Below, in pieces: positions 12,310 to 53,349 of a DNA stretch of 64,000 nt. Each line of letters starts with the position of its first letter. The first letter of the stretch is position 1. Where the stretch lies: the NCBI GenBank assembly GCA_964401835.1, contig CAYNZP010000011.1, forward strand, positions 18,812-82,811, in the 5' to 3' direction. A model generated the notes under the pieces. It was not told the DNA's origin. It worked only from the letters and a program-made list of their open reading frames with translations, and ran no database searches. The position numbers and the translations under genes were made by a program. Source of the stretch: an uncultured Planctomycetaceae bacterium (GTDB taxonomy: Bacteria; Planctomycetota; Phycisphaerae; SM23-33).

Positions 12310-13413
12310 TTAGCTGTTGTTTACAGCTTCTACGACAAGGTCGCCAACCTCTGTGGTCGAATAGCCCATCCTGCCGGCTGACTGCGTGTCCATCTTCGGC
12401 GTAACTTCGCGGATAGCCTTTTCAACTCTGTTGCCGGCGTCGACAAGTTTATCGTCGCCCTTGTTGGTGCCGGTTTCACGCAGCAGCATTGCCAGCGAGG
12501 CGATGGCCGCTATCGGGTTGATGACATTCTGGCCTGTGTATTTCGGGGCACTGCCGCCGATTGGCTCGAACATGCTGACGCCGCTGGGGTTGATGTTACC
12601 ACCAGCTGCCACGCCCATGCCGCCCTGAATCATCGCGCCAAGGTCGGTGATGATATCGCCGAACATGTTGCAAACGACGATCGTGTCGTAGTACTCGGGG
12701 TTCTTGACAAACCACATGCAGGCTGCGTCGACGTGGTTGTAGTCTTTCTTGATATCCGGGTACTCTTCGCCCACTTCCATGAACGCCCGATACCAAAGAT
12801 CGTGTGCGTAGGTCAGCACGTTGTTCTTGCCGACCAGTGTAACCATGTGTTTCGGGTTGTTGCGGCGTTTGCACAGTTCGAAGGTATAGCGGATCGCCCT
12901 TTCGACGCCGCGGCGGGTGTTGCACATTATCTGCGTCGCCACTTCGTTGTCGGTGCCCTTATACTGGAAACCGCCCATGCCGGTGTACAGCCCTTCGGTA
13001 TTCTCGCGGACCACGAGGAAGTCGATGTCGTCGGAGGTCTTGCCCTTCAGCGGCGTATCGACATTCGGGTACAGCGTAACCGGGCGAAGGTTAATGTACT
13101 GATCCAGCTCGAAGCGAACCTTAAGCAGCAGGCCTTTTTCCAGGATACCCGGGGCTACGTCGGGATGCCCGACCGCGCCGAGGTAGATGGCATCGAAGCT
13201 CTTGAGCTGCTCGATCTCTTCCGGATGAATGACCGGAATGGTCTGCTCGTTGGGGTCGCCGCCGGCCGCCAGGTAACGGTCGCCGCTGACGTTGAAGTCA
13301 GTGGTCTCGTACTCGAACCCAACCTTCCCGGCAACAGCTGCCAGAACCTTCAGGCCTTCGGCTACTACTTCCGGGCCAGTGCCGTCGCCACCGATAACTG
13401 CTATCTTAGTCAC
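12310..13413 (-). CDS. leuB: 3-isopropylmalate dehydrogenase (isocitrate/isopropylmalate dehydrogenase family)
   Basis: IAVIGGDGTGPEV, LRPV, VVRENTEGLY, NMFGDIITDLGA, MFEPIGGSAPK, NPIAAI. Confidence 0.85.
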   Translation of the reverse strand: MTKIAVIGGDGTGPEVVAEGLKVLAAVAGKVGFEYETTDFNVSGDRYLAAGGDPNEQTIPVIHPEEIEQLKSFDAIYLGAVGHPDVAPGILEKGLLLKVRFELDQYINLRPVTLYPNVDTPLKGKTSDDIDFLVVRENTEGLYTGMGGFQYKGTDNEVATQIMCNTRRGVERAIRYTFELCKRRNNPKHMVTLVGKNNVLTYAHDLWYRAFMEVGEEYPDIKKDYNHVDAACMWFVKNPEYYDTIVVCNMFGDIITDLGAMIQGGMGVAAGGNINPSGVSMFEPIGGSAPKYTGQNVINPIAAIASLAMLLRETGTNKGDDKLVDAGNRVEKAIREVTPKMDTQSAGRMGYSTTEVGDLVVEAVNNS

Positions 13414-13557
13414 TTTCCTATCCTTCCTGTTATTTTCAGGTTCTTCTTAATGTTCACAAAAGAGCCGGGTAGTTTACTGCTACGCCTGCCTTTAGGCAAT
13501 AGTTATCAGCTGCCCCGTTTGCTAAAAGTGCCCGAAGCTGCCGCTGCTTGCCGAAAG

Positions 13558-13647
13558 CTGCCCAAAACTGCCCAATTCTGCCCAGTTCTGCCCAGTTCTG
13601 CCCGATTCTGCCCAGTTCTGCCCAATTCTGCCCAATTCTGCCCAGTT
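13558..13647. repeat. Tandem repeat, 9 copies of a 10-bp unit CTGCCC(A/G)(A/G)(T/A)(T/A)
   Basis: ctgcccaaaa ctgcccaatt ctgcccagtt ctgcccagtt ctgcccgatt ctgcccagtt ctgcccaatt ctgcccaatt ctgcccagtt; degenerate units extend leftwards to about 13510. Confidence 0.95.
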
Positions 13648-13965
13648 TTAAAAATGTTAAGTTGATCTTTATTAATGACTTATCGATTCTGGGCCTTAAA
13701 AACGGAAAAAACCAGCTTTTGACGGACTCGGGCTCCTGACTACCGGCTCCCGGCTACGCTTGGTCATGTTATTTGGTTTTTAAAAGTAATCTGCACTCGA
13801 CACTCAGCGTCGTCATTGATTCGGAATTCGTGCTTCTAAATTCGGATTTCCACTTTTGTGGCGCTCCATATTACCTGCGATGACCGCGAAACCCCGCGCA
13901 AAGCGGTAACGTAATCCACGGATTACACGGATAAGTCCCGGCCGGGCCATGAAATGTTTTTTTGA

Positions 13966-14047
13966 AATTTTTTAGCATCACATTCAAACGCTGTACGCTA
14001 TCAATCCGCGCTGAATAACACCGCCGGTTTAGCTGGCTATGCCAAAA
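13966..14047. repeat. Diverged direct repeat, copy 1 (partner 14569-14650)
   Basis: aattttttagcat-c-acattc-a-aacg...cgctatcaatc-N29-gctatgcc; ungapped alignment at offset 603. Confidence 0.85.
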
Positions 14048-14164
14048 AATAGGGGTGGGCATGCTTGTTCGCCCTGCTGCCTCGCCCGATCTCCCAGCAT
14101 GGAAAAAAGTTAGGGCAATCAATTAAAGTATTCGAGAAAATTGCCGATAATAAAACTTTAGTAT

Positions 14165-14200
14165 AAAAAAAGGCCGACTTTGGAGTTTCGGTCGGCCTTT
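14165..14200 (-). terminator. Intrinsic terminator (minus strand) with no annotated upstream ORF
   Basis: Minus strand reads aaaggccgac-cgaaactccaaa-gtcggcc followed by T7. Confidence 0.75.
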
Positions 14201-14204
14201 CCCT

Positions 14205-14289
14205 TGGCGGGCATCGGGTGCTTACACGGCACCAGCAATTAAAGTCATGGGGTCGGGATGCTATTATTTTTAATTGCAATGATGCCCGC
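14205..14289 (-). ncRNA. Candidate structured small RNA (three-way junction, tRNA-like 3' end); family unassigned
   Basis: Stems GCGGGCATC/GATGCCCGC, GCAATTAAA/TTTAATTGC and GGTGC-cgtgtaa-GCACC; ends ...GATGCCC-GCCA just before a terminator. Confidence 0.5.
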
Positions 14290-14430
14290 TATGAGTTTTC
14301 GTACTGGTACTAAAGGAATTTGTCGGAAAATAAAAGGATATGCAAGCAAGACCCCAGTTGGCAGTATAGTTGAATACGTTTTCCCCGACCCAACCGATTT
14401 TATCTTCATAAAATCCACGGTTAAGCCCTT

Positions 14431-14480
14431 CCCTAAAACACCCCAAAAAATCTCAAAACACCCTAAAACAATCTTAAAAT
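14431..14480. repeat. Degenerate 10-bp periodic array with phased A-tracts
   Basis: ccctaaaaca ccccaaaaaa tctcaaaaca ccctaaaaca atcttaaaat. Confidence 0.6.
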
Positions 14481-14568
14481 GTTCCCAAGAAACCCCAAAA
14501 GGAGTGTGCTTATATTTACTTATTCGGCCTTTTCTTCTTACTAAATTAGAAAAAGAAAGAAAATCATG

Positions 14569-14650
14569 AATTTTTTAGCATAACATTCCAACGTAGGGCG
14601 CTATCAATCGACTTTGAACAACCAACTAAGGTTGGCAAGCTATGCCGAAA
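14569..14650. repeat. Diverged direct repeat, copy 2 (partner 13966-14047)
   Basis: aattttttagcat-a-acattc-c-aacg...cgctatcaatc-N29-gctatgcc. Confidence 0.85.
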
Positions 14651-14800
14651 ATTTTGGGGATTTTTGCGTGTGGCACGTCTTGCTCGCAAGGCGTGTTGTT
14701 TGATTTAAGAACATAGCTAGCGAGCTAGCCATGCCACCCGCGCAGCTAAACCCAAGCCGGGCCATGAAATGATTTTTTTGAGTTTTTTGGGGGTGTGGTT

Positions 14801-14893
14801 GTAGGCTGGGGCAAGTGAAACGCGCCCCACCGCGCAAAATGCAAAATGCCAGTAGAATTGCTTTCCCGCGAGCAAACAAGTTGCTCGCCCTAC
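14801..14893. repeat. GTAG-type REP doublet (REPIN-like) at the 3' side of the TIR gene
   Basis: Plus strand GTAGGCT-GGGGC...GCCCC at 14801 and, inverted, minus strand GTAGG-GCGAGCAA-cttgt-TTGCTCGC starting at 14893. Confidence 0.7.
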
Positions 14894-14907
14894 TTACTAC
14901 TTAGTTG

Positions 14908-15840
14908 TTAAAAAGGAATTTTGTAACTGGTTGTCTGCTCTTCAGGCTTTTCTTGGAAAAGAACTCTTCCATGCTTACCAAGTAGTTCGCCTATTTTTGA
15001 ACGGATTTCTGAAGAGTTTTGTATTAGTGGATTGCTTAGTGCATTATTTGATAAACGATCCAATTGTGTCTCTGGAATACTATCAACCTTATTTAATAGG
15101 TTAATTTTATTTTGGGCATCATTAATATTCTTTACTGATAATAAAAGACTACATAAGAGGCCGAGGATTTTGCTTTTTGTTTTGGGATTAAAAACAAGTA
15201 TGTTGAAAATTGCCTCTGCTACTTCGAATACCGTCTTGCCTTCTCCCTGCAATGCTTGAAATTTCCCCAAAAAACCATAGGGGTCTAATTCTTTCTTTAT
15301 TGGGATTACAAGAACATCTCTTCCTAAAGCAATCCCAACCTCTTGTCCAGTCCAATTGCTTTCCTTAAAGCCGGGGGTAAGAATTGCAGCGAAAGCGTCC
15401 ATAGAAAACAAAGCTCTCTCAATTTCGATTTCCCATTCGCGCGTAGGTTCGATGTCTGAATGAGCAACGAAGCCTGATATACCATATGTTAATAATTGTT
15501 TTTGTAGTTTTGCCGTCTTAACTTTAAAAGCTGAAATATGGCTCAAGAAAAGTTTAAAATGCCCTGGCTTCCAAAAAGTGCTTTCGGACAAGTCCAAATC
15601 TTTTGATACTGTATATCCATGTTCGATATCAAGTTCATCGGCTATTTTAATAATTGTTCCAGGAGGAACATCAGCCAATAACTCTTTTGTATATACCCAC
15701 TTACTATTTGCATCGGATGTTTCTTTTTTACAATTTACGCCATGACCTGATAAATAGACATTGATGTCAACATAGGTCATCTTGGCCTGCAATTTTCGGC
15801 CTATGGTATCGATCAAGTTGAATCTATCTATTTGTCTCAT
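14908..15840 (-). CDS. TIR-domain protein (TIR_2-like) with N-terminal helical domain, possible phage-defence protein
   Basis: FKLFLSH, GISGFVAHSDIEPTREWEIEIERAL, SNWTGQEVGIALG (Glu at the TIR catalytic position), VIPI, DPYGFLGKFQAL; clearly more AT-rich than flanking genes. Confidence 0.85.
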   Translation of the reverse strand: MRQIDRFNLIDTIGRKLQAKMTYVDINVYLSGHGVNCKKETSDANSKWVYTKELLADVPPGTIIKIADELDIEHGYTVSKDLDLSESTFWKPGHFKLFLSHISAFKVKTAKLQKQLLTYGISGFVAHSDIEPTREWEIEIERALFSMDAFAAILTPGFKESNWTGQEVGIALGRDVLVIPIKKELDPYGFLGKFQALQGEGKTVFEVAEAIFNILVFNPKTKSKILGLLCSLLLSVKNINDAQNKINLLNKVDSIPETQLDRLSNNALSNPLIQNSSEIRSKIGELLGKHGRVLFQEKPEEQTTSYKIPF

Positions 15841-15879
15841 TTAATTCTTTTAAGAAGCTGTAGGTATCTTTTTTAGTCT

Positions 15880-15955
15880 GTAGGGTGGGTTTTGCCACCC
15901 ACAGATTTATGTTATTGTCTGATATTATTCGCGTGGGTGCAAGCACCCACCCTAC
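15880..15955. repeat. GTAG-type REP doublet (REPIN-like) at the 5' side of the TIR gene
   Basis: GTA-GGGTGG-gttttg-CCACCC-ac ... inverted partner on the minus strand GTAGG-GTGGGTGC-tt-GCACCCAC; both begin GTAGGGTGGG. Confidence 0.8.
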
Positions 15956-16003: not shown

Positions 16004-17428
16004 ATGCTTTTTGATACGGAAGACACGATTGCGGCGATATCCACAGCGGCTGGTACAGGCGCGCGGGCGATAGTGCGCGTAAGCGGCCCGGAAGCTTTCA
16101 ACATAGCAGCGGCTGTCTTCGCCCCGGCTGACGGTGAGCTTGCAGACATGGCGGGCTTCAGCTCTGCTTCCGGCATCATGCGAACCAACGCCGGAGCTGC
16201 CCCCATAGAGCTGCCGGGTGTAGCTTACGTCTTTCGCGCACCGAGAAGCTTTACACGGGACGACGTTGTAGAGCTTCACATACCCGGAGCGGCAGCTGCC
16301 GCTACTGCCCTGCTGGCTTCGCTGACGGCGGCTGGTGCTAGGCAGGCGAGGCCGGGCGAATTCACCGCGCGGGCGTTTTTCTCCGGCCGGATAGACCTTT
16401 CGGCGGCAGAGGCGGTGGCGGACATAATAAACGCAGCCGACGACGCGCACCTGCGCTCGGCAGTGGCGGCGCTGGGAGGCGAGGTTTACCGTCTGTGCAG
16501 CGGCGCCAGCGAGCAGCTCACCGAGGCACTGGCCAACGTCGAAGCTTCGATAGACATGGCAGAAGAAGATATCCAGTTCGCCACGCCGGCAGCGCTGGCT
16601 GCGCAACTGCACGAACTTTCCGCGAAACTGTGCGGCATAGCCCAAAAAGCGGCCAGCATGCCCGACAAGGCCCAGCTGCCCTGCGTCGCCATCGCGGGCA
16701 GGCCCAACGTCGGTAAAAGTTCGCTGCTAAACGCGCTGAGCGGAACCGACCGTGCGATTGTCTCGGCCCTGGCTGGAACGACGCGCGATGTCCTGACAGC
16801 TACGATGAACTTCGCCGACGGCTCGGCGGCTGTGCTGCAGGACGTAGCCGGCTTTATCGAGCCAGACAGCGAGATAGCCGCAGCTGCCGATAGCGCCGCG
16901 CGGCAGGCGGTTACCGCGGCCGACGTGATAGTTTTCGTGGTCGATATCTCGGAAAAAAGCTTCGAAGCAGACGCCCAGTTGCTCGCGCAGGTCCGCTCGA
17001 CAAACCGTCGCTGCCCGCTGGAATTACTAGCCAACAAAACTGACCAGGTGAAAATTTCGCAAATTCAAAAAAAAATAGATGGCTTGGAAAAGGACATGCA
17101 ACTGGCGGCTATGGGGGTTTCCTGCGAAAGCGGAGCGGGTTTGGACGAGTTCAAAACCACCCTCGAGCAGCGTCTCGGCCTGCACGCCGAGCGAAGCGGG
17201 GTTGCCCTTGGGCTGCACGAGCGTCAGAAAAACTGCCTTATTTCCGCGTCCCAGGCGTCCAAACGCGCGGCTGAGCTCTTGCAAAACTGCGTCCAAGTGG
17301 CTGATTCGGCGGAACTTGTAGCTATCGAGCTGCGGGCGGCGTTATCTCAAATCGGCCTAATAAGCGGACAGGTTGTCACAGAAGACATACTGGGCAGTAT
17401 TTTTTCCCGCTTCTGCGTGGGAAAATAA
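16004..17428 (+). CDS. mnmE: tRNA modification GTPase MnmE/TrmE
   Basis: DTIAAIST, IVRVSGP, PRSFTRDDVVELH, ARPGEFTARAF, GRPNVGKSSLLNAL, GTTRD, DILGSIFSRFCVGK. Confidence 0.96.
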   Translation: MLFDTEDTIAAISTAAGTGARAIVRVSGPEAFNIAAAVFAPADGELADMAGFSSASGIMRTNAGAAPIELPGVAYVFRAPRSFTRDDVVELHIPGAAAAATALLASLTAAGARQARPGEFTARAFFSGRIDLSAAEAVADIINAADDAHLRSAVAALGGEVYRLCSGASEQLTEALANVEASIDMAEEDIQFATPAALAAQLHELSAKLCGIAQKAASMPDKAQLPCVAIAGRPNVGKSSLLNALSGTDRAIVSALAGTTRDVLTATMNFADGSAAVLQDVAGFIEPDSEIAAAADSAARQAVTAADVIVFVVDISEKSFEADAQLLAQVRSTNRRCPLELLANKTDQVKISQIQKKIDGLEKDMQLAAMGVSCESGAGLDEFKTTLEQRLGLHAERSGVALGLHERQKNCLISASQASKRAAELLQNCVQVADSAELVAIELRAALSQIGLISGQVVTEDILGSIFSRFCVGK

Positions 17429-52007: not shown

Positions 52008-52176
52008 GCTATTAATCCTCCAGAATAGGTTTTTGTGCCTTTAATCAAAGGCAACAGGCTCGATAAAGATTATATAGGAGGACCCAGAAACTGGCAAGAA
52101 ATGATATTTGGCACTTTTGGCGCATAAAAATGGTGGCACTAAGCCATTTCCCGCTAAAAGCCTTTCCTATTGCCAC

Positions 52177-52205
52177 TTGAAACGTCTCGCATTGCAACGT
52201 ATAAA
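52177..52205 (+). promoter_or_regulatory. Sigma70-type promoter for dnaN
   Basis: TTGAAA-N17-TATAAA. Confidence 0.6.
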
Positions 52206-52248
52206 CACGCATTGGAAATCTGACATTTCAAAGAAGGAAGAATCGATT

Positions 52249-53349
52249 ATGAAGGTTATCGCACAGACAACTGCGTTGCAGGAGGCATTGGCACTTGTCG
52301 GCAGTATCGTAGCGACACGCACTCCCAAGCCGGTATTGCAATGCGTCAAACTCATCGCCAAGGACGACACACTGACACTGCTGGCAACCGACCTCGAAGC
52401 CGGGGCCCGTTATCAGATAACAGCTGTACAGATCGAGGCCGAAGGCGAAGCACTTATCCCGGCAGACAGGCTCAGCGGCATTGTTCGCGAGTCATCCTCT
52501 GAAGAGAGCCTGACGATTGAAACCGACAAGCAGACAGTTCACGTCGAAGGTGCCGGCAGCCACTTTAAGATTTTCGGTTATGACGCGGGCGAATACCCAG
52601 CCGTCGCAGAATTCAACGAAGACCCGGATTTTCAGGTCCCCGCGACAGTTTTGGCTAATGCCATCGGCAAGACTCTTTTCGCCACTGCTAAGGCACACAG
52701 CCATTATGCGATAAGCGGCGTTCTCTGGGAAGCATCCGGCAAGAAGCTGATGCTGGTAGCGACAGACGGGCATCGCCTTGCACAGGCCAGGGGTTCGCTT
52801 AGCAAGTCGACCAAGGGCGACATTGCAGCTATCGTTCCAGCCAAGCTTATGGGTCTTATCCAGAGGATAGCCGGCGACGGCGAAGAAACTCTCGATATCA
52901 AGATCAGCGAAAATCAGATCCTTATCCGCACCGCAAGAGCGGTTCTTGTCAGCTCGCTTGTCCAGGGCAACTTCCCGAAATATGGAGATGTAATACCCAA
53001 GGACTGCTCTATAAAGGCTACTATAAATACCGGGGAATTAGAGCATCGCACCCGACAGGCGGCCCTGCTGACAAACGAAGAATCCAAGGGCGTCAGGTTA
53101 AGTTTCAAGTCAGGGCAGGTGACACTTTCCAGCCGGGCACCGGAAACCGGCGAGGCGGAAGTAAACTGCCCAATAGAGTACGAAGGCAGCGATCTGGAAA
53201 TTGCGTTCAACCCGGCATTCCTGACCGACGCAATGCGTGTAATCGAGACAGACCAGATTACCATTGAGATGAATGCCTCAAACAAGCCGGCAGTTATCAA
53301 GTCCGGAAGCGACTTTTTATACGTTTTGATGCCTGTCGATCTGGGTTGA
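52249..53349 (+). CDS. dnaN: DNA polymerase III beta sliding clamp
   Basis: ATDLE, VATDGHRLA, GNFPKY, IAFNPAFL, YVLMPV; AAGGAAG RBS. Confidence 0.95.
   Translation: MKVIAQTTALQEALALVGSIVATRTPKPVLQCVKLIAKDDTLTLLATDLEAGARYQITAVQIEAEGEALIPADRLSGIVRESSSEESLTIETDKQTVHVEGAGSHFKIFGYDAGEYPAVAEFNEDPDFQVPATVLANAIGKTLFATAKAHSHYAISGVLWEASGKKLMLVATDGHRLAQARGSLSKSTKGDIAAIVPAKLMGLIQRIAGDGEETLDIKISENQILIRTARAVLVSSLVQGNFPKYGDVIPKDCSIKATINTGELEHRTRQAALLTNEESKGVRLSFKSGQVTLSSRAPETGEAEVNCPIEYEGSDLEIAFNPAFLTDAMRVIETDQITIEMNASNKPAVIKSGSDFLYVLMPVDLG

What the first reader, a model, noticed from the sequence alone, without database searches (positions are those of the whole stretch)
14801..15955. TIR gene bracketed on both sides by GTAG...CTAC REP doublets: a possible REP-bounded cargo cassette
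Seen in sequence: the AT-rich TIR ORF (14908-15840) sits 14 bp from one inverted REP pair (14801 GTAGGCT-GGGGC...GCCCC ... GCGAGCAA-acaag-TTGCTCGC-CCTAC 14893) and 39 bp from a second (15880 GTAGGGTGG...CCACCC ... GTGGGTGC-aa-GCACCCAC-CCTAC 15955). Each of the four units is a hairpin with a GTAG foot. Established: GTAG-footed REP hairpins are substrates of HUH/Y1 RAYT (TnpA-REP) nucleases and occur as REPIN doublets. Inference: a defence gene may have been captured or moved as a REPIN-gene-REPIN unit, without integrase or IS. No RAYT gene is in this window.
Basis: partly seen in the sequence, partly recalled or inferred. Interest (0 to 1): 0.8.

Follow-up and report, generated by a model that had tools for sequence, protein, structure and literature searches.

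The report
Foreign TIR gene inside REP cluster
A horizontally acquired TIR-domain gene sits between genuine GTAG-footed REP repeats in a Phycisphaerae genome, but the repeats look like resident genome elements that fill this intergenic hot spot, not the ends of a mobile gene cassette.

Summary
All four GTAG(G)-footed hairpins are at the stated coordinates, 14 nt and 39 nt from a 310-aa TIR_2 ORF with GC3 0.31 (neighbours 0.66-0.75). They are real REPs, not chance.

- Each has other copies in different contexts in the source metagenomes, with breaks exactly at the unit ends.
- The 14801 family (GTAGGCTGGGGC..GCCCCACC) has at least 171 units in one Phycisphaerae MAG.
- The 14868 family (GTAGGGCGAGCAAC..) directly flanks a bona fide RAYT gene on another contig (NCBIfam REP_Tyr_transpos, 3.6e-52).

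The cargo-cassette reading is not supported.

- The four units belong to three families. Only 15880-15955 is a true inverted homodimer.
- The gene is found at one locus only. No contig in three metagenomes skips it.
- Other copies of the flanking repeats lack it, and TIR homologues elsewhere lack such flanks.
- In the REP-rich MAG, REP-bracketed segments have ordinary GC.
- A relative without the TIR gene also has a REP dimer just upstream of mnmE.
- The leuB-mnmE gap also holds at least four non-GTAG repeat families, while other intergenic regions sampled in the window hold none.

Most likely a foreign gene landed in a BIME-like REP cluster at a synteny breakpoint. No RAYT is in the window. 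Side note: this TIR family ends in an SSB-tip-like DDDIPF motif.

The parts
12310..13413 (-). leuB-like isopropylmalate/isocitrate dehydrogenase gene; left border of the variable gap
   Evidence: Pfam Iso_dh 1.4e-79; GC 0.575, GC3 0.745
13549..13647 (.). 10-bp tandem repeat (CTGCCCARTT, about 9.6 copies) upstream of leuB
   Evidence: the repeat finder D1; Tandem Repeats Finder
13861..14047 (.). Non-GTAG interspersed repeats A (13861-13949) and B copy 1 (13937-14047). Both have other copies elsewhere in the metagenome
   Evidence: read laying depth 41-47 against an 11.9 baseline, with loose ends at 13861, 13895 and 13954; direct repeats D2 and D4
14048..14562 (.). Unique AT-rich non-coding segment (GC 0.41) bracketed by the two copies of repeat B
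   Evidence: Baseline depth only; GC; small ORFs here have no Pfam hit
14563..14660 (.). Repeat B copy 2 (about 80% identical to 13966-14019)
   Evidence: the repeat finder D2
14666..14741 (.). Repeat C: 76-nt long-hairpin element without a GTAG foot, multi-copy
   Evidence: Inverted repeat I1; DNA fold z = -3.8; depth about 81 against 11.9; copies in contigs of 15.5, 17.2 and 7.1 kb with 7-8 differences
14742..14800 (.). Repeat D: GCCGGGCCATGAAATG-T7-GAG-T6-GGGG module, multi-copy. In some other copies it is joined directly to REP unit 1
   Evidence: Depth 65-81 against 11.7; other contigs match 14745-14831 and 14756-14831 as one piece; second copy in the window at 13932-13973
14801..14831 (+). 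REP unit 1, family GTAGGCTGGGGC-loop-GCCCCACC
   Evidence: Sequence; depth 118-126 against 11.7, with loose ends exactly at 14801 and 14831; same foot and stem in 171 or more units of Phycisphaerae MAG JAWLCG01 and in other metagenome contigs as inverted dimers
14868..14893 (-). REP unit 2, family GTAGGGCGAGCAAC-loop-GTTGCTCGC (read on the - strand). With unit 1 it forms a hybrid dimer with the GTAG feet outside and a 36-nt spacer
   Evidence: Sequence; one extra copy in the metagenome and a further inverted pair on a 2.7-kb contig; the same family flanks the RAYT gene in L044 on both sides; variants with compensatory stem changes in L011, L012 and L062
14908..15840 (-). TIR_2-domain gene, 310 aa, horizontally acquired. 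Architecture: N-terminal helical domain, TIR domain (about residues 95-196), C-terminal helical domain
   Evidence: Pfam TIR_2 6.2e-11; GC3 0.31; AlphaFold pLDDT 83, Foldseek hits to MAL, AbTir, SARM1, SpbK and SPARTA TIR domains; W163 and E167 invariant in 37 homologues; more than 1000 homologues, the best 58% identical, in unrelated phyla
15880..15955 (.). REP homodimer with the GTAG feet outside (REPIN-like). Unit 3 is 15880-15902 (+), unit 4 is 15933-15955 (-), spacer 30 nt, unit GTAGGGTGGG-N6-CACCCAC. It ends 48 nt before the mnmE start codon
   Evidence: Inverted repeat I2, 83% complementary; fold z = -5.6; one other copy (10 differences in 81 nt) on a 1959-nt contig with unlike flanks, breaks at 15875 and 15955
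16004..17428 (+). mnmE (tRNA modification GTPase); right border. Synteny is conserved downstream and broken upstream in relatives
   Evidence: Pfam TrmE_N, MnmE_helical, MMR_HSR1; relatives L009-L012

Best explanation
**What it is.** The leuB-mnmE gap of this uncultured Phycisphaerae-like planctomycete is a variable, non-coding hot spot at a synteny breakpoint. It is filled with a BIME-like mosaic of the genome's own short interspersed repeats: three GTAG-footed REP families and at least four non-GTAG repeat families.

**The REPs.** They belong to the REP/RAYT kind. They are ssDNA hairpins with a GTAG(G) foot, of the type that a REP-associated tyrosine transposase encoded elsewhere in the genome recognises and propagates.

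**The gene.** The TIR gene is a separate, foreign, single-gene insertion (986 bp at 36% GC, running from REP foot to REP foot). It came to lie between two neighbouring REP elements. The likely routes are illegitimate or REP-assisted recombination, or insertion of DNA between REP dimer partners. It was not carried there by the REPs.

**Present roles (inferred).**
- The REPs probably act as hairpin punctuation: 3'-end stabiliser or terminator for the TIR transcript, and an insulator between the divergent TIR and mnmE genes.
- The TIR protein is probably a stand-alone NAD+-consuming abortive-infection or defence effector.

**Shown:** the REP identity, the multi-copy status, the family assignments, the foreign composition of the gene, and the absence of a second copy or an empty site.

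**Inferred:** the order of events, the insertion route, the REP functions and the TIR activity.
For: **REP nature.**
- Other copies in unlike flanks, with breaks at the unit ends.
- 171 or more units of the unit-1 family in one Phycisphaerae MAG, mostly as inverted dimers.
- A RAYT (NCBIfam REP_Tyr_transpos 3.6e-52; Pfam Y1_Tnp 29.6 bits against a cut-off of 23) flanked on both sides by the unit-2 family, with unit-1 family copies nearby.
- Related Planctomycetota RAYTs flanked by GTAGGG hairpins.
- Contigs at the organism's own depth (10-11.7) carry RAYT motifs.

**Resident cluster, not cassette ends.**
- Three different families flank the gene.
- The gap also holds repeats A to D.
- Other intergenic bins of the window are at baseline depth, and none of the families recurs elsewhere in the window.
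- The relative L011/L012 has a feet-outside REP dimer 73 nt upstream of mnmE and no TIR gene.
- REP-bracketed segments in the REP-rich MAG have normal GC.

**Foreign gene.**
- GC3 0.31.
- Best homologue 58% identical; the few homologues that carry a source name are from Desulfobacterota, Gammaproteobacteria and Brevibacillus. Contexts examined include an integrase/TraG-bearing element and a toxin-antitoxin-rich island.
- Absent upstream of mnmE in relatives.

**Literature.**
- GTAG REPs occur in the PVC superphylum. [quoted passage not shown]
- REPs are hot spots for insertion of mobile DNA (PMC1525189).
Against: - The low-GC segment ends exactly at the GTAGGG feet on both sides (14 nt after the stop codon, 39 nt before the start codon). 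That is tidier than random landing in a 2.6-kb gap would predict.
- The two inner feet face the gene. This is the same geometry as the dominant feet-inside dimer (CCTAC-N16-GTAGG) of MAG JAWLCG01.
- The outermost feet share GTAGG-N-TGGG.
- No close relative (MnmE identity 61% or less) was available, so a true empty site was never seen.
- The complete genome was not available, so REP density and the cognate RAYT in this organism are not established.
Confidence: 0.6

Rival explanations
1. REP-bounded cargo cassette. A RAYT acting on the outer feet (14801 and 15955) or the inner feet (14893 and 15880) excised and re-inserted the REP-gene-REP segment as single-stranded DNA. The TIR gene would then travel without an integrase or IS.
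For: - The units are genuine RAYT-type REPs.
- The foreign segment ends exactly at the REP feet.
- The outer units have the same feet-outside topology as the REPs flanking RAYT genes.
- The outer feet share GTAGG-N-TGGG.
- A CT dinucleotide, the cleavage site of characterised RAYTs (PMC8266576), directly precedes GTAGGG at 15878-15879.
Against: - The ends belong to different REP families with different stems, and characterised RAYTs depend on their own REP's foot, stem or loop features (PMC8266576).
- The other three feet are not preceded by CT.
- There is only one locus for the gene, and no skipping contig in three metagenomes.
- Other copies of the flanking repeats lack the gene.
- TIR homologues elsewhere lack REP flanks.
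- REP-bracketed segments in JAWLCG01 show no unusual GC.
- No mention of cargo or passenger genes was found in the RAYT paper searched for those words.
Confidence: 0.08
2. REPs arrived afterwards. The TIR gene was inserted first, by any route. REPINs and the other repeats later colonised its flanks, because AT-rich, non-essential, newly acquired DNA tolerates insertions.
For: - The whole gap is a sink for at least seven repeat families.
- REPIN populations are replicative (PMC3116915, listed).
- Repeats are absent from the other intergenic regions sampled in the window.
Against: - A REP dimer upstream of mnmE also exists in a relative without the TIR gene. This suggests that REP occupancy of this position predates or is independent of the gene.
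- The order of events cannot be read from one haplotype.
Confidence: 0.2
3. The hairpins came in with the gene, as part of the donor fragment.
For: They abut the gene closely, at 14 and 39 nt.
Against: - The hairpins are GC-rich (about 0.49-0.50) against 0.36 for the gene.
- Their families are found in Phycisphaerae and Planctomycetota genomes and around their RAYTs.
- Homologous TIR genes in other lineages have no such flanks.
Confidence: 0.05
4. Chance hairpins or ordinary terminators that merely resemble REPs.
For: - The terminator and promoter scan lists 15885-15902 and part of unit 1 as terminator-like.
- Other copies of unit 1 are followed by a T-run.
Against: - Counts in that scan do not exceed the shuffles.
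- The units are multi-copy with exact boundaries.
- They belong to families with hundreds of copies and RAYT association.
Confidence: 0.02

Closest known systems
GTAG-type REPs, BIMEs and REPINs with their RAYT (TnpA-REP; 'REPtron') of Proteobacteria, e.g. E. coli, Pseudomonas, Stenotrophomonas (PMC3733652, PMC8266576, PMC3116915)
   Same: - A 23-31-nt GC-rich hairpin with an unpaired 5' GTAG(G) foot.
- Multi-copy and extragenic.
- Inverted dimers with 16-40-nt spacers, including hybrid dimers between families.
- Mosaic clusters with other motifs.
- The same family flanks a single RAYT gene in inverted orientation (L044, L169, L170).
   Different: - The host is a Phycisphaerae (Planctomycetota) lineage.
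- The foot is GTAGG(G/C).
- In this 64-kb window the REPs are rare and confined to one gap.
- The cognate RAYT of this organism was not recovered.
[quoted passage not shown]
   Same: Foreign DNA is found precisely between neighbouring REP units in an intergenic REP cluster.
   Different: The insert is a bare gene with no transposase, no terminal inverted repeats of its own and no target duplication. The insertion route is unknown.
IS200/IS605 elements and their non-autonomous PATE derivatives (Y1 HUH transposition between subterminal hairpins)
   Same: Hairpin ends that could be recognised as ssDNA by a Y1 HUH enzyme, so a segment between two hairpins could in principle be excised.
   Different: - IS200/IS605 ends are a defined, matched left/right pair that carries tnpA or tnpB.
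- Here the flanks are unrelated REP families in inverted dimers.
- There is no transposase and no second copy.
Stand-alone bacterial TIR-domain defence effectors such as SpbK of ICEBs1 (PMC11984713), AbTir, and the ThsB component of Thoeris
   Same: - TIR fold (Foldseek hits to SpbK, AbTir and SARM1 TIR domains).
- An invariant Glu in an SNWTxQE motif.
- A single gene with no conserved neighbour, found in an integrase/TraG-bearing element and a toxin-antitoxin-rich island in other genomes.
   Different: - Distinct N- and C-terminal helical domains with no structural match.
- Only weak PADLOC and NCBIfam hits, far below the cut-offs.
- No ThsA or other partner gene.
- The family tail DDDIPF resembles the SSB C-terminal tip.
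- No activity has been tested.

Membership tests
GTAG-type REP / REPIN-RAYT system | Short (20-40 nt) GC-rich imperfect palindrome with an unpaired GTAG tetranucleotide at one end | tested here: met
   All four units
GTAG-type REP / REPIN-RAYT system | Many dispersed, mostly extragenic copies in the same genome | tested here: inconclusive
   Extra copies at the organism's depth in the same metagenomes, but none elsewhere in the 64-kb window. The whole genome was not available. The unit-1 family has 171 or more units in another Phycisphaerae MAG.
GTAG-type REP / REPIN-RAYT system | Units paired in inverted orientation (REPIN/BIME dimer) able to fold as one long hairpin | tested here: met
   15880-15955 is a homodimer, z = -5.6. 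14801-14893 is only a hybrid of two families, z = -2.0. Dimers dominate in JAWLCG01.
GTAG-type REP / REPIN-RAYT system | A cognate RAYT gene flanked by the same REP family | tested here: inconclusive
   Met for the unit-2 family on another contig, L044, and for GTAGGG hairpins around Planctomycetota RAYTs. No RAYT in the window. RAYT-motif contigs at the same depth in the source metagenome could not be linked to this genome.
GTAG-type REP / REPIN-RAYT system | Cleavage and strand transfer by the RAYT at a CT/CA site next to the hairpin | not testable with these tools
   Biochemical assay needed. Only unit 3 is preceded by CT.
Hairpin-bounded mobile cassette (IS200/IS605-like or REPIN-gene-REPIN) | Matched ends of one family that define the element | tested here: not met
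   The units belong to three families. The outer feet share only GTAGG-N-TGGG.
Hairpin-bounded mobile cassette (IS200/IS605-like or REPIN-gene-REPIN) | Evidence of movement: a second copy, an empty site or an excision joint | tested here: not met
   One locus only. No joint skipping the gene in three metagenomes. Relatives are too distant for an empty-site test.
Hairpin-bounded mobile cassette (IS200/IS605-like or REPIN-gene-REPIN) | REP-bracketed genes enriched for foreign or defence cargo | tested here: not met
   13 REP-bracketed segments in JAWLCG01 have GC equal to their surroundings. This was tested in another genome only.
TIR-domain NADase defence effectors | TIR fold | tested here: met
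   Pfam TIR_2 6.2e-11. AlphaFold pLDDT 83, with Foldseek hits to MAL, AbTir, SARM1 and SpbK TIR domains.
TIR-domain NADase defence effectors | Conserved catalytic glutamate | tested here: inconclusive
   E167 in SNWTGQE is invariant in 37 homologues. Its equivalence to the catalytic Glu is inferred from the motif, not from a superposition.
TIR-domain NADase defence effectors | Membership of a named system (Thoeris ThsA+ThsB, CBASS, Pycsar, SPARTA, retron-TIR) | tested here: not met
   PADLOC hits only E = 0.004-0.011. NCBIfam 27 bits against a cut-off of 600. No partner gene here or next to homologues.
TIR-domain NADase defence effectors | NAD+ cleavage and phage protection | not testable with these tools
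   Needs expression and assay.

The most novel reading that the evidence does not exclude
A RAYT-type HUH enzyme can mobilise a whole gene that lies between REP units. This TIR gene would then be a REP-bounded single-gene cassette, a route for spreading defence genes without an integrase or IS. The exact coincidence of the foreign segment with two inward-facing GTAGGG feet, the same geometry as the common CCTAC-N16-GTAGG dimer, would be its footprint.
Probability: 0.07. Interest if true: 0.75.

Novelty: new member of a known kind. Interest (0 to 1): 0.3.

Why it matters
If the cassette idea were right, it would add a new vehicle for defence-gene mobility and give RAYTs a function beyond maintaining REPINs. 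The evidence points to the ordinary alternative: REP clusters mark, and may create, soft spots in a genome where foreign genes accumulate.

Three results are still useful.
- GTAGG-footed REP families and their RAYTs are abundant and conserved across Phycisphaerae. One MAG has at least 171 units in the roughly 0.7 Mb sampled.
- A single intergenic gap can hold a mosaic of seven repeat families.
- The TIR gene belongs to a large, uncharacterised, highly conserved single-gene family whose C-terminus copies the SSB tip motif. That suggests a testable link between TIR signalling and the SSB interactome.

Tried and rejected
- **Rfam on the whole window:** no hit.
- **Genome-contig scan with MnmE:** no close relative. 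The nearest MnmE homologues are 61% identical or less, so a true empty-site comparison was impossible.
- **A '290-aa TIR' next to an identical MnmE (L006, L008):** it looked like alternative cargo, but it is the same DNA with a later start codon called.
- **Flanks of TIR homologues (L013-L016):** no GTAG-footed hairpins.
- **Promoter and terminator scan of the gap:** counts no higher than in shuffles.
- **20-kb read laying at 80% likeness:** coding bins are inflated by homologous genes of other community members. Only the intergenic bins could be read, and they were at baseline.
- **Search for a RAYT:**
  - A first strict HUH regex found nothing.
  - Pfam on 55 ORFs from the window's first 4 kb and REP-bearing loci showed no strong Y1_Tnp.
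  - A looser regex found L044.
  - tblastn with it found no other RAYT in 1.2 Mb of fetched loci.
  - The two RAYT-motif contigs of the source metagenome were not among the 120 listed homologues, so the organism's own RAYT was not recovered.
- **PMC2884548:** its 'flanked by rep...' hits mean 'repeats', not REPs.
- **Papers linking DDDIPF with TIR:** none found.
Full report
**1. What is in the sequence**

- Unit 1: GTAGGCTGGGGC-aagtgaaacgc-GCCCCACC at 14801-14831.
- Unit 2: GCGAGCAA-acaag-TTGCTCGC-CCTAC at 14868-14893.
- A 310-codon ORF on the minus strand at 14908-15840.
- Unit 3: GTAGGGTGGG-ttttgc-CACCCAC at 15880-15902.
- Unit 4: GTGGGTG-caag-CACCCAC-CCTAC at 15933-15955.

The gaps to the ORF are 14 and 39 nt. 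The ORF is a TIR_2 protein (Pfam 6.2e-11, residues 98-196). Its neighbours are a leuB-type dehydrogenase (12310-13413, -) and mnmE (16004-17428, +).

Composition marks the gene as foreign. The segment between the two inner REP feet (14894-15879) is 35.9% GC. GC3 of the ORF is 0.31, against 0.745 for leuB and 0.657 for mnmE.

**2. Are the hairpins more than chance?**

Yes.
- GTAG and CTAC are half as frequent as expected in this window.
- CCCTAC occurs twice in 64 kb, both times as the foot of units 2 and 4. These are the only perfect hairpins with a stem of 7 bp or more and a 3' CTAC foot.
- GTAGGGTGGG with up to one mismatch occurs three times, all around this gene.
- Units 3 and 4 are inverted copies of one 23-nt unit, GTAGGGTGGG-N6-CACCCAC. 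Together they fold as one long hairpin, z = -5.6.
- The left pair is different. Its two units share only the GTAGG foot and fold as two independent hairpins, z = -2.0.

**3. Source and relatives**

- The same DNA is on contigs from JGI metagenomes 3300013118/9 and from ENA and Logan assemblies of one marine-metagenome study. All show the same arrangement.
- A '290-aa TIR' call is only a later start codon on identical DNA.
- The nearest MnmE homologues are 61% identical at most, and those that carry a name are Phycisphaerae or Planctomycetota. A scan of GTDB species genomes with MnmE found no close relative.
- In the nearest relatives, gene order downstream of mnmE is conserved (mnmE, YbaK-like, bPH_2, phosphoribosyltransferase and onward). 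Upstream it differs in each, and none has the TIR gene or leuB there.
- The gene therefore sits at a synteny breakpoint.

**4. The hairpins are interspersed repeats**

I laid the Logan contigs of three runs from the source study on the region at 80% likeness.
- The 15875-15955 dimer has one other copy: 10 differences in 81 nt, on a 1959-nt contig, depth 8.4 against 11.7. Its flanks are unlike on both sides, with breaks exactly at 15875 and 15955.
- Unit 1 has many other copies. Depth is 118-126 against 11.7, with breaks exactly at 14801 and 14831.
- Unit 2 has at least one other copy and a further inverted pair on a 2.7-kb contig.

None of these other copies is attached to the TIR gene.

The same experiment showed that the rest of the gap is also built of multi-copy modules.
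- 13861-13949.
- 13937-14047, with a second copy at 14563-14660.
- A 76-nt long-hairpin element at 14666-14741 (z = -3.8).
- A T-rich module at 14742-14800. In other places this module is joined directly to unit 1.

None of these families recurs elsewhere in the window. The intergenic bins of two 20-kb stretches are at baseline depth. The repeats are therefore concentrated in this one gap.

**5. They are REPs of the RAYT kind**

*Unit-1 family.* A pattern for it (GTAGGCTGGGGC-N5-15-GCCCCACC) gave two results.
- It found inverted dimers in several metagenome contigs.
With up to three mismatches this is 171 units, with a 33-34-nt consensus.
- Dimers there are mostly feet-inside, CCTAC-N16-GTAGG (29 of 30 '-+' pairs at 15-16 nt). 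Some are feet-outside with 26-41-nt spacers.

*Unit-2 family.*
- One metagenome contig, L044, encodes a 183-aa protein that is a bona fide REP-associated tyrosine transposase: NCBIfam REP_Tyr_transpos 3.6e-52, 176 bits against a cut-off of 80; Pfam Y1_Tnp 29.6 bits against a cut-off of 23.
- It is flanked upstream by GTAGGGCGAGCAAC-tgg-TTGCTCGCGG and downstream by GCGAGCAAC-loop-GTTGCTCGC-CCTAC. That is the family of window unit 2, which reads GTAGGGCGAGCAAC-ttgt-TTGCTCGCGGG on the minus strand.
- Unit-1 family copies lie a few hundred bases away.
- Variants of this family with compensatory stem changes (GCGTGCAAC/GTTGCACGC, GCGGGCAA/TGCCCGCC) occur in the MnmE relatives L011 and L012 and in JAWLCG01.

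*The RAYT clade.*
- Homologues of the L044 RAYT that carry a name are annotated as Phycisphaerae or Planctomycetota REP-associated tyrosine transposases.
- Two that I inspected are flanked in the same inverted way by GTAGGG-footed hairpins with other stems.
- In the source metagenome, two contigs at depth 10-11.7 (the depth of the window's organism) carry RAYT signature motifs: VWQRRFWEH and HVDYIxANPVKHG. I could not link them to this genome.
- The window itself has no RAYT, from the gene-call Pfam lists and tblastn.

*Literature.* GTAG-tagged REPs in the PVC superphylum, head-head and tail-tail dimers, hybrid dimers between families, clusters, and DNA inserted between dimer partners are all described (PMC3733652). 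The need for the GTAG foot and cleavage at CT next to the hairpin are shown for E. coli and other RAYTs (PMC8266576).

**6. Was the gene moved by the REPs?**

Nothing I could test says so.
- The exact protein is encoded at this locus only, and the next homologue is 58% identical.
- No contig in three metagenomes skips the gene.
- The flanks belong to three REP families, not a matched pair.
- Four loci with homologous TIR genes in other lineages show no GTAG-footed hairpins. In the loci examined these genes lie among toxin-antitoxin genes, in an integrase/TraG-bearing element and beside NYN-domain genes.
- In JAWLCG01, 13 segments of 0.9-3.5 kb are bracketed by REP units. Their GC equals that of their surroundings. 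Bracketing of ordinary genes by REPs is therefore commonplace where REPs are dense.
- L011 and L012, which lack the TIR gene, carry a feet-outside REP dimer (GTAGGGCGTGCAAC family, 72 nt) 73 nt upstream of mnmE. That is the same place as the window's dimer, which lies 49 nt upstream. This argues that the right-hand dimer belongs to the mnmE upstream region and not to a cassette.

Some points keep the idea alive at low probability.
- The foreign segment runs exactly from one GTAGGG foot to the other.
- The two inner feet face the gene, as in the CCTAC-N16-GTAGG dimers.
- The outer feet share GTAGG-N-TGGG.
- Unit 3 is preceded by CT.

**7. Best account**

A resident, BIME-like REP cluster occupies a variable gap at a synteny breakpoint. 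A foreign single gene came to lie between two of its units, through insertion between dimer partners or REP-associated recombination. REPs are documented hot spots for incoming mobile DNA (PMC1525189). Whether the REPs were there first, as L011 suggests, or colonised the flanks later cannot be settled from one haplotype. The hairpins probably now serve as 3'-end and insulator structures, which is inference.

**8. The TIR gene**

- The family has more than 1000 members of about 311 aa. Mean column identity is 63% among the 37 aligned.
- The AlphaFold model (pLDDT 83) has an N-terminal helical domain, a TIR domain and a C-terminal helical bundle.
- Only the TIR part matches solved structures: MAL, AbTir, SARM1, SpbK, SPARTA.
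- W163 and E167 (SNWTGQE) are invariant, consistent with an NADase-type TIR (inference).
- PADLOC and NCBIfam hits are far below their cut-offs. No partner gene is conserved.
- It is best described as a stand-alone TIR effector of unproven, probably defensive, function.
- The family's C-terminus is (D/E)DD(I/V/L)PF, the same as the C-terminal tip of E. coli SSB (my own knowledge). The window's copy ends in SYKIPF. I found no paper linking the two.

**9. Verdict**

- The REP identification is supported.
- The cargo-cassette mechanism is not supported.
- The feature is a new member of a known kind: a REP/BIME cluster, here in Phycisphaerae, next to a horizontally acquired gene.
- Interest is modest for the finding as posed. 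The SSB-tip-like tail of the TIR family is the most promising side lead.

Noticed in passing
window 14908-14931 (C-terminal codons of the TIR ORF); alignment A2: The TIR family (more than 1000 members, about 311 aa) ends in an almost invariant (D/E)DD(I/V/L)PF. This is identical to the C-terminal tip of E. coli SSB that recruits SSB-interacting proteins (own knowledge). The window's copy has SYKIPF, keeping IPF but not the acidic residues. No paper linking DDDIPF and TIR was found.
   Followed up: partly
window 13549-13647: A 10-bp tandem repeat (CTGCCCARTT, about 9.6 copies, 88% matches) lies 136 nt upstream of the leuB start codon. Its function is unknown.
   Followed up: partly
window 13861-14800: A mosaic of at least four non-GTAG multi-copy modules. 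Two copies of module B (13937-14047 and 14563-14660) bracket a unique 515-nt AT-rich segment (14048-14562). In other places of the metagenome the modules are joined differently (13949 to 14745, and 14047 to 14668). This suggests a duplication or insertion inside an older A-B-C-D array.
   Followed up: partly
window 14666-14741: A 76-nt long-hairpin element without a GTAG foot (35-nt arms, z = -3.8). It has about six further copies on long contigs at the organism's depth. It is REPIN-like in form but belongs to a different family.
   Followed up: partly
L011 7857-7928 and L012 1190-1261: A Phycisphaerae relative (MnmE 58% identical) has a feet-outside REP dimer of the GTAGGGCGTGCAAC family 73 nt upstream of mnmE. 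It is embedded in direct and inverted copies of a 'ttggttgactgg..ttaactggttgattgggaacag' motif. So a REP dimer upstream of mnmE recurs in a distant relative, though from a different family.
   Followed up: partly
L044 1-1560: A RAYT gene (697-1245) is surrounded by at least four kinds of GTAG/CTAC-footed hairpins: GTAGGGCGAGCAAC, GTAGGCTGGGGC, GTAGGGCGAGAAGG and GTCGGGCA..GACCTAC. This is a multi-family REP nest around one RAYT.
   Followed up: partly
The dominant form is a feet-inside dimer with a fixed 16-nt spacer. A second family (GTAGGGCGAGCAAC paired with GTAGGGCGTGCAAC) occurs three times within 8 kb in L062. No RAYT was found in the fetched part.
   Followed up: partly
window 52108-53349 and neighbours; window end: dnaN (DNA_pol3_beta), a DciA-domain gene, mnmE and the start of mnmG (GIDA) all lie in this window. 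The region may be close to the replication origin.
   Followed up: no
window 14801-14831 compared with other copies: In other copies, unit 1 is followed directly by TTTTTG or TTTTGG (terminator-like). In the window it is followed by GCGCAAAATG. The family may double as intrinsic terminators elsewhere.
   Followed up: no
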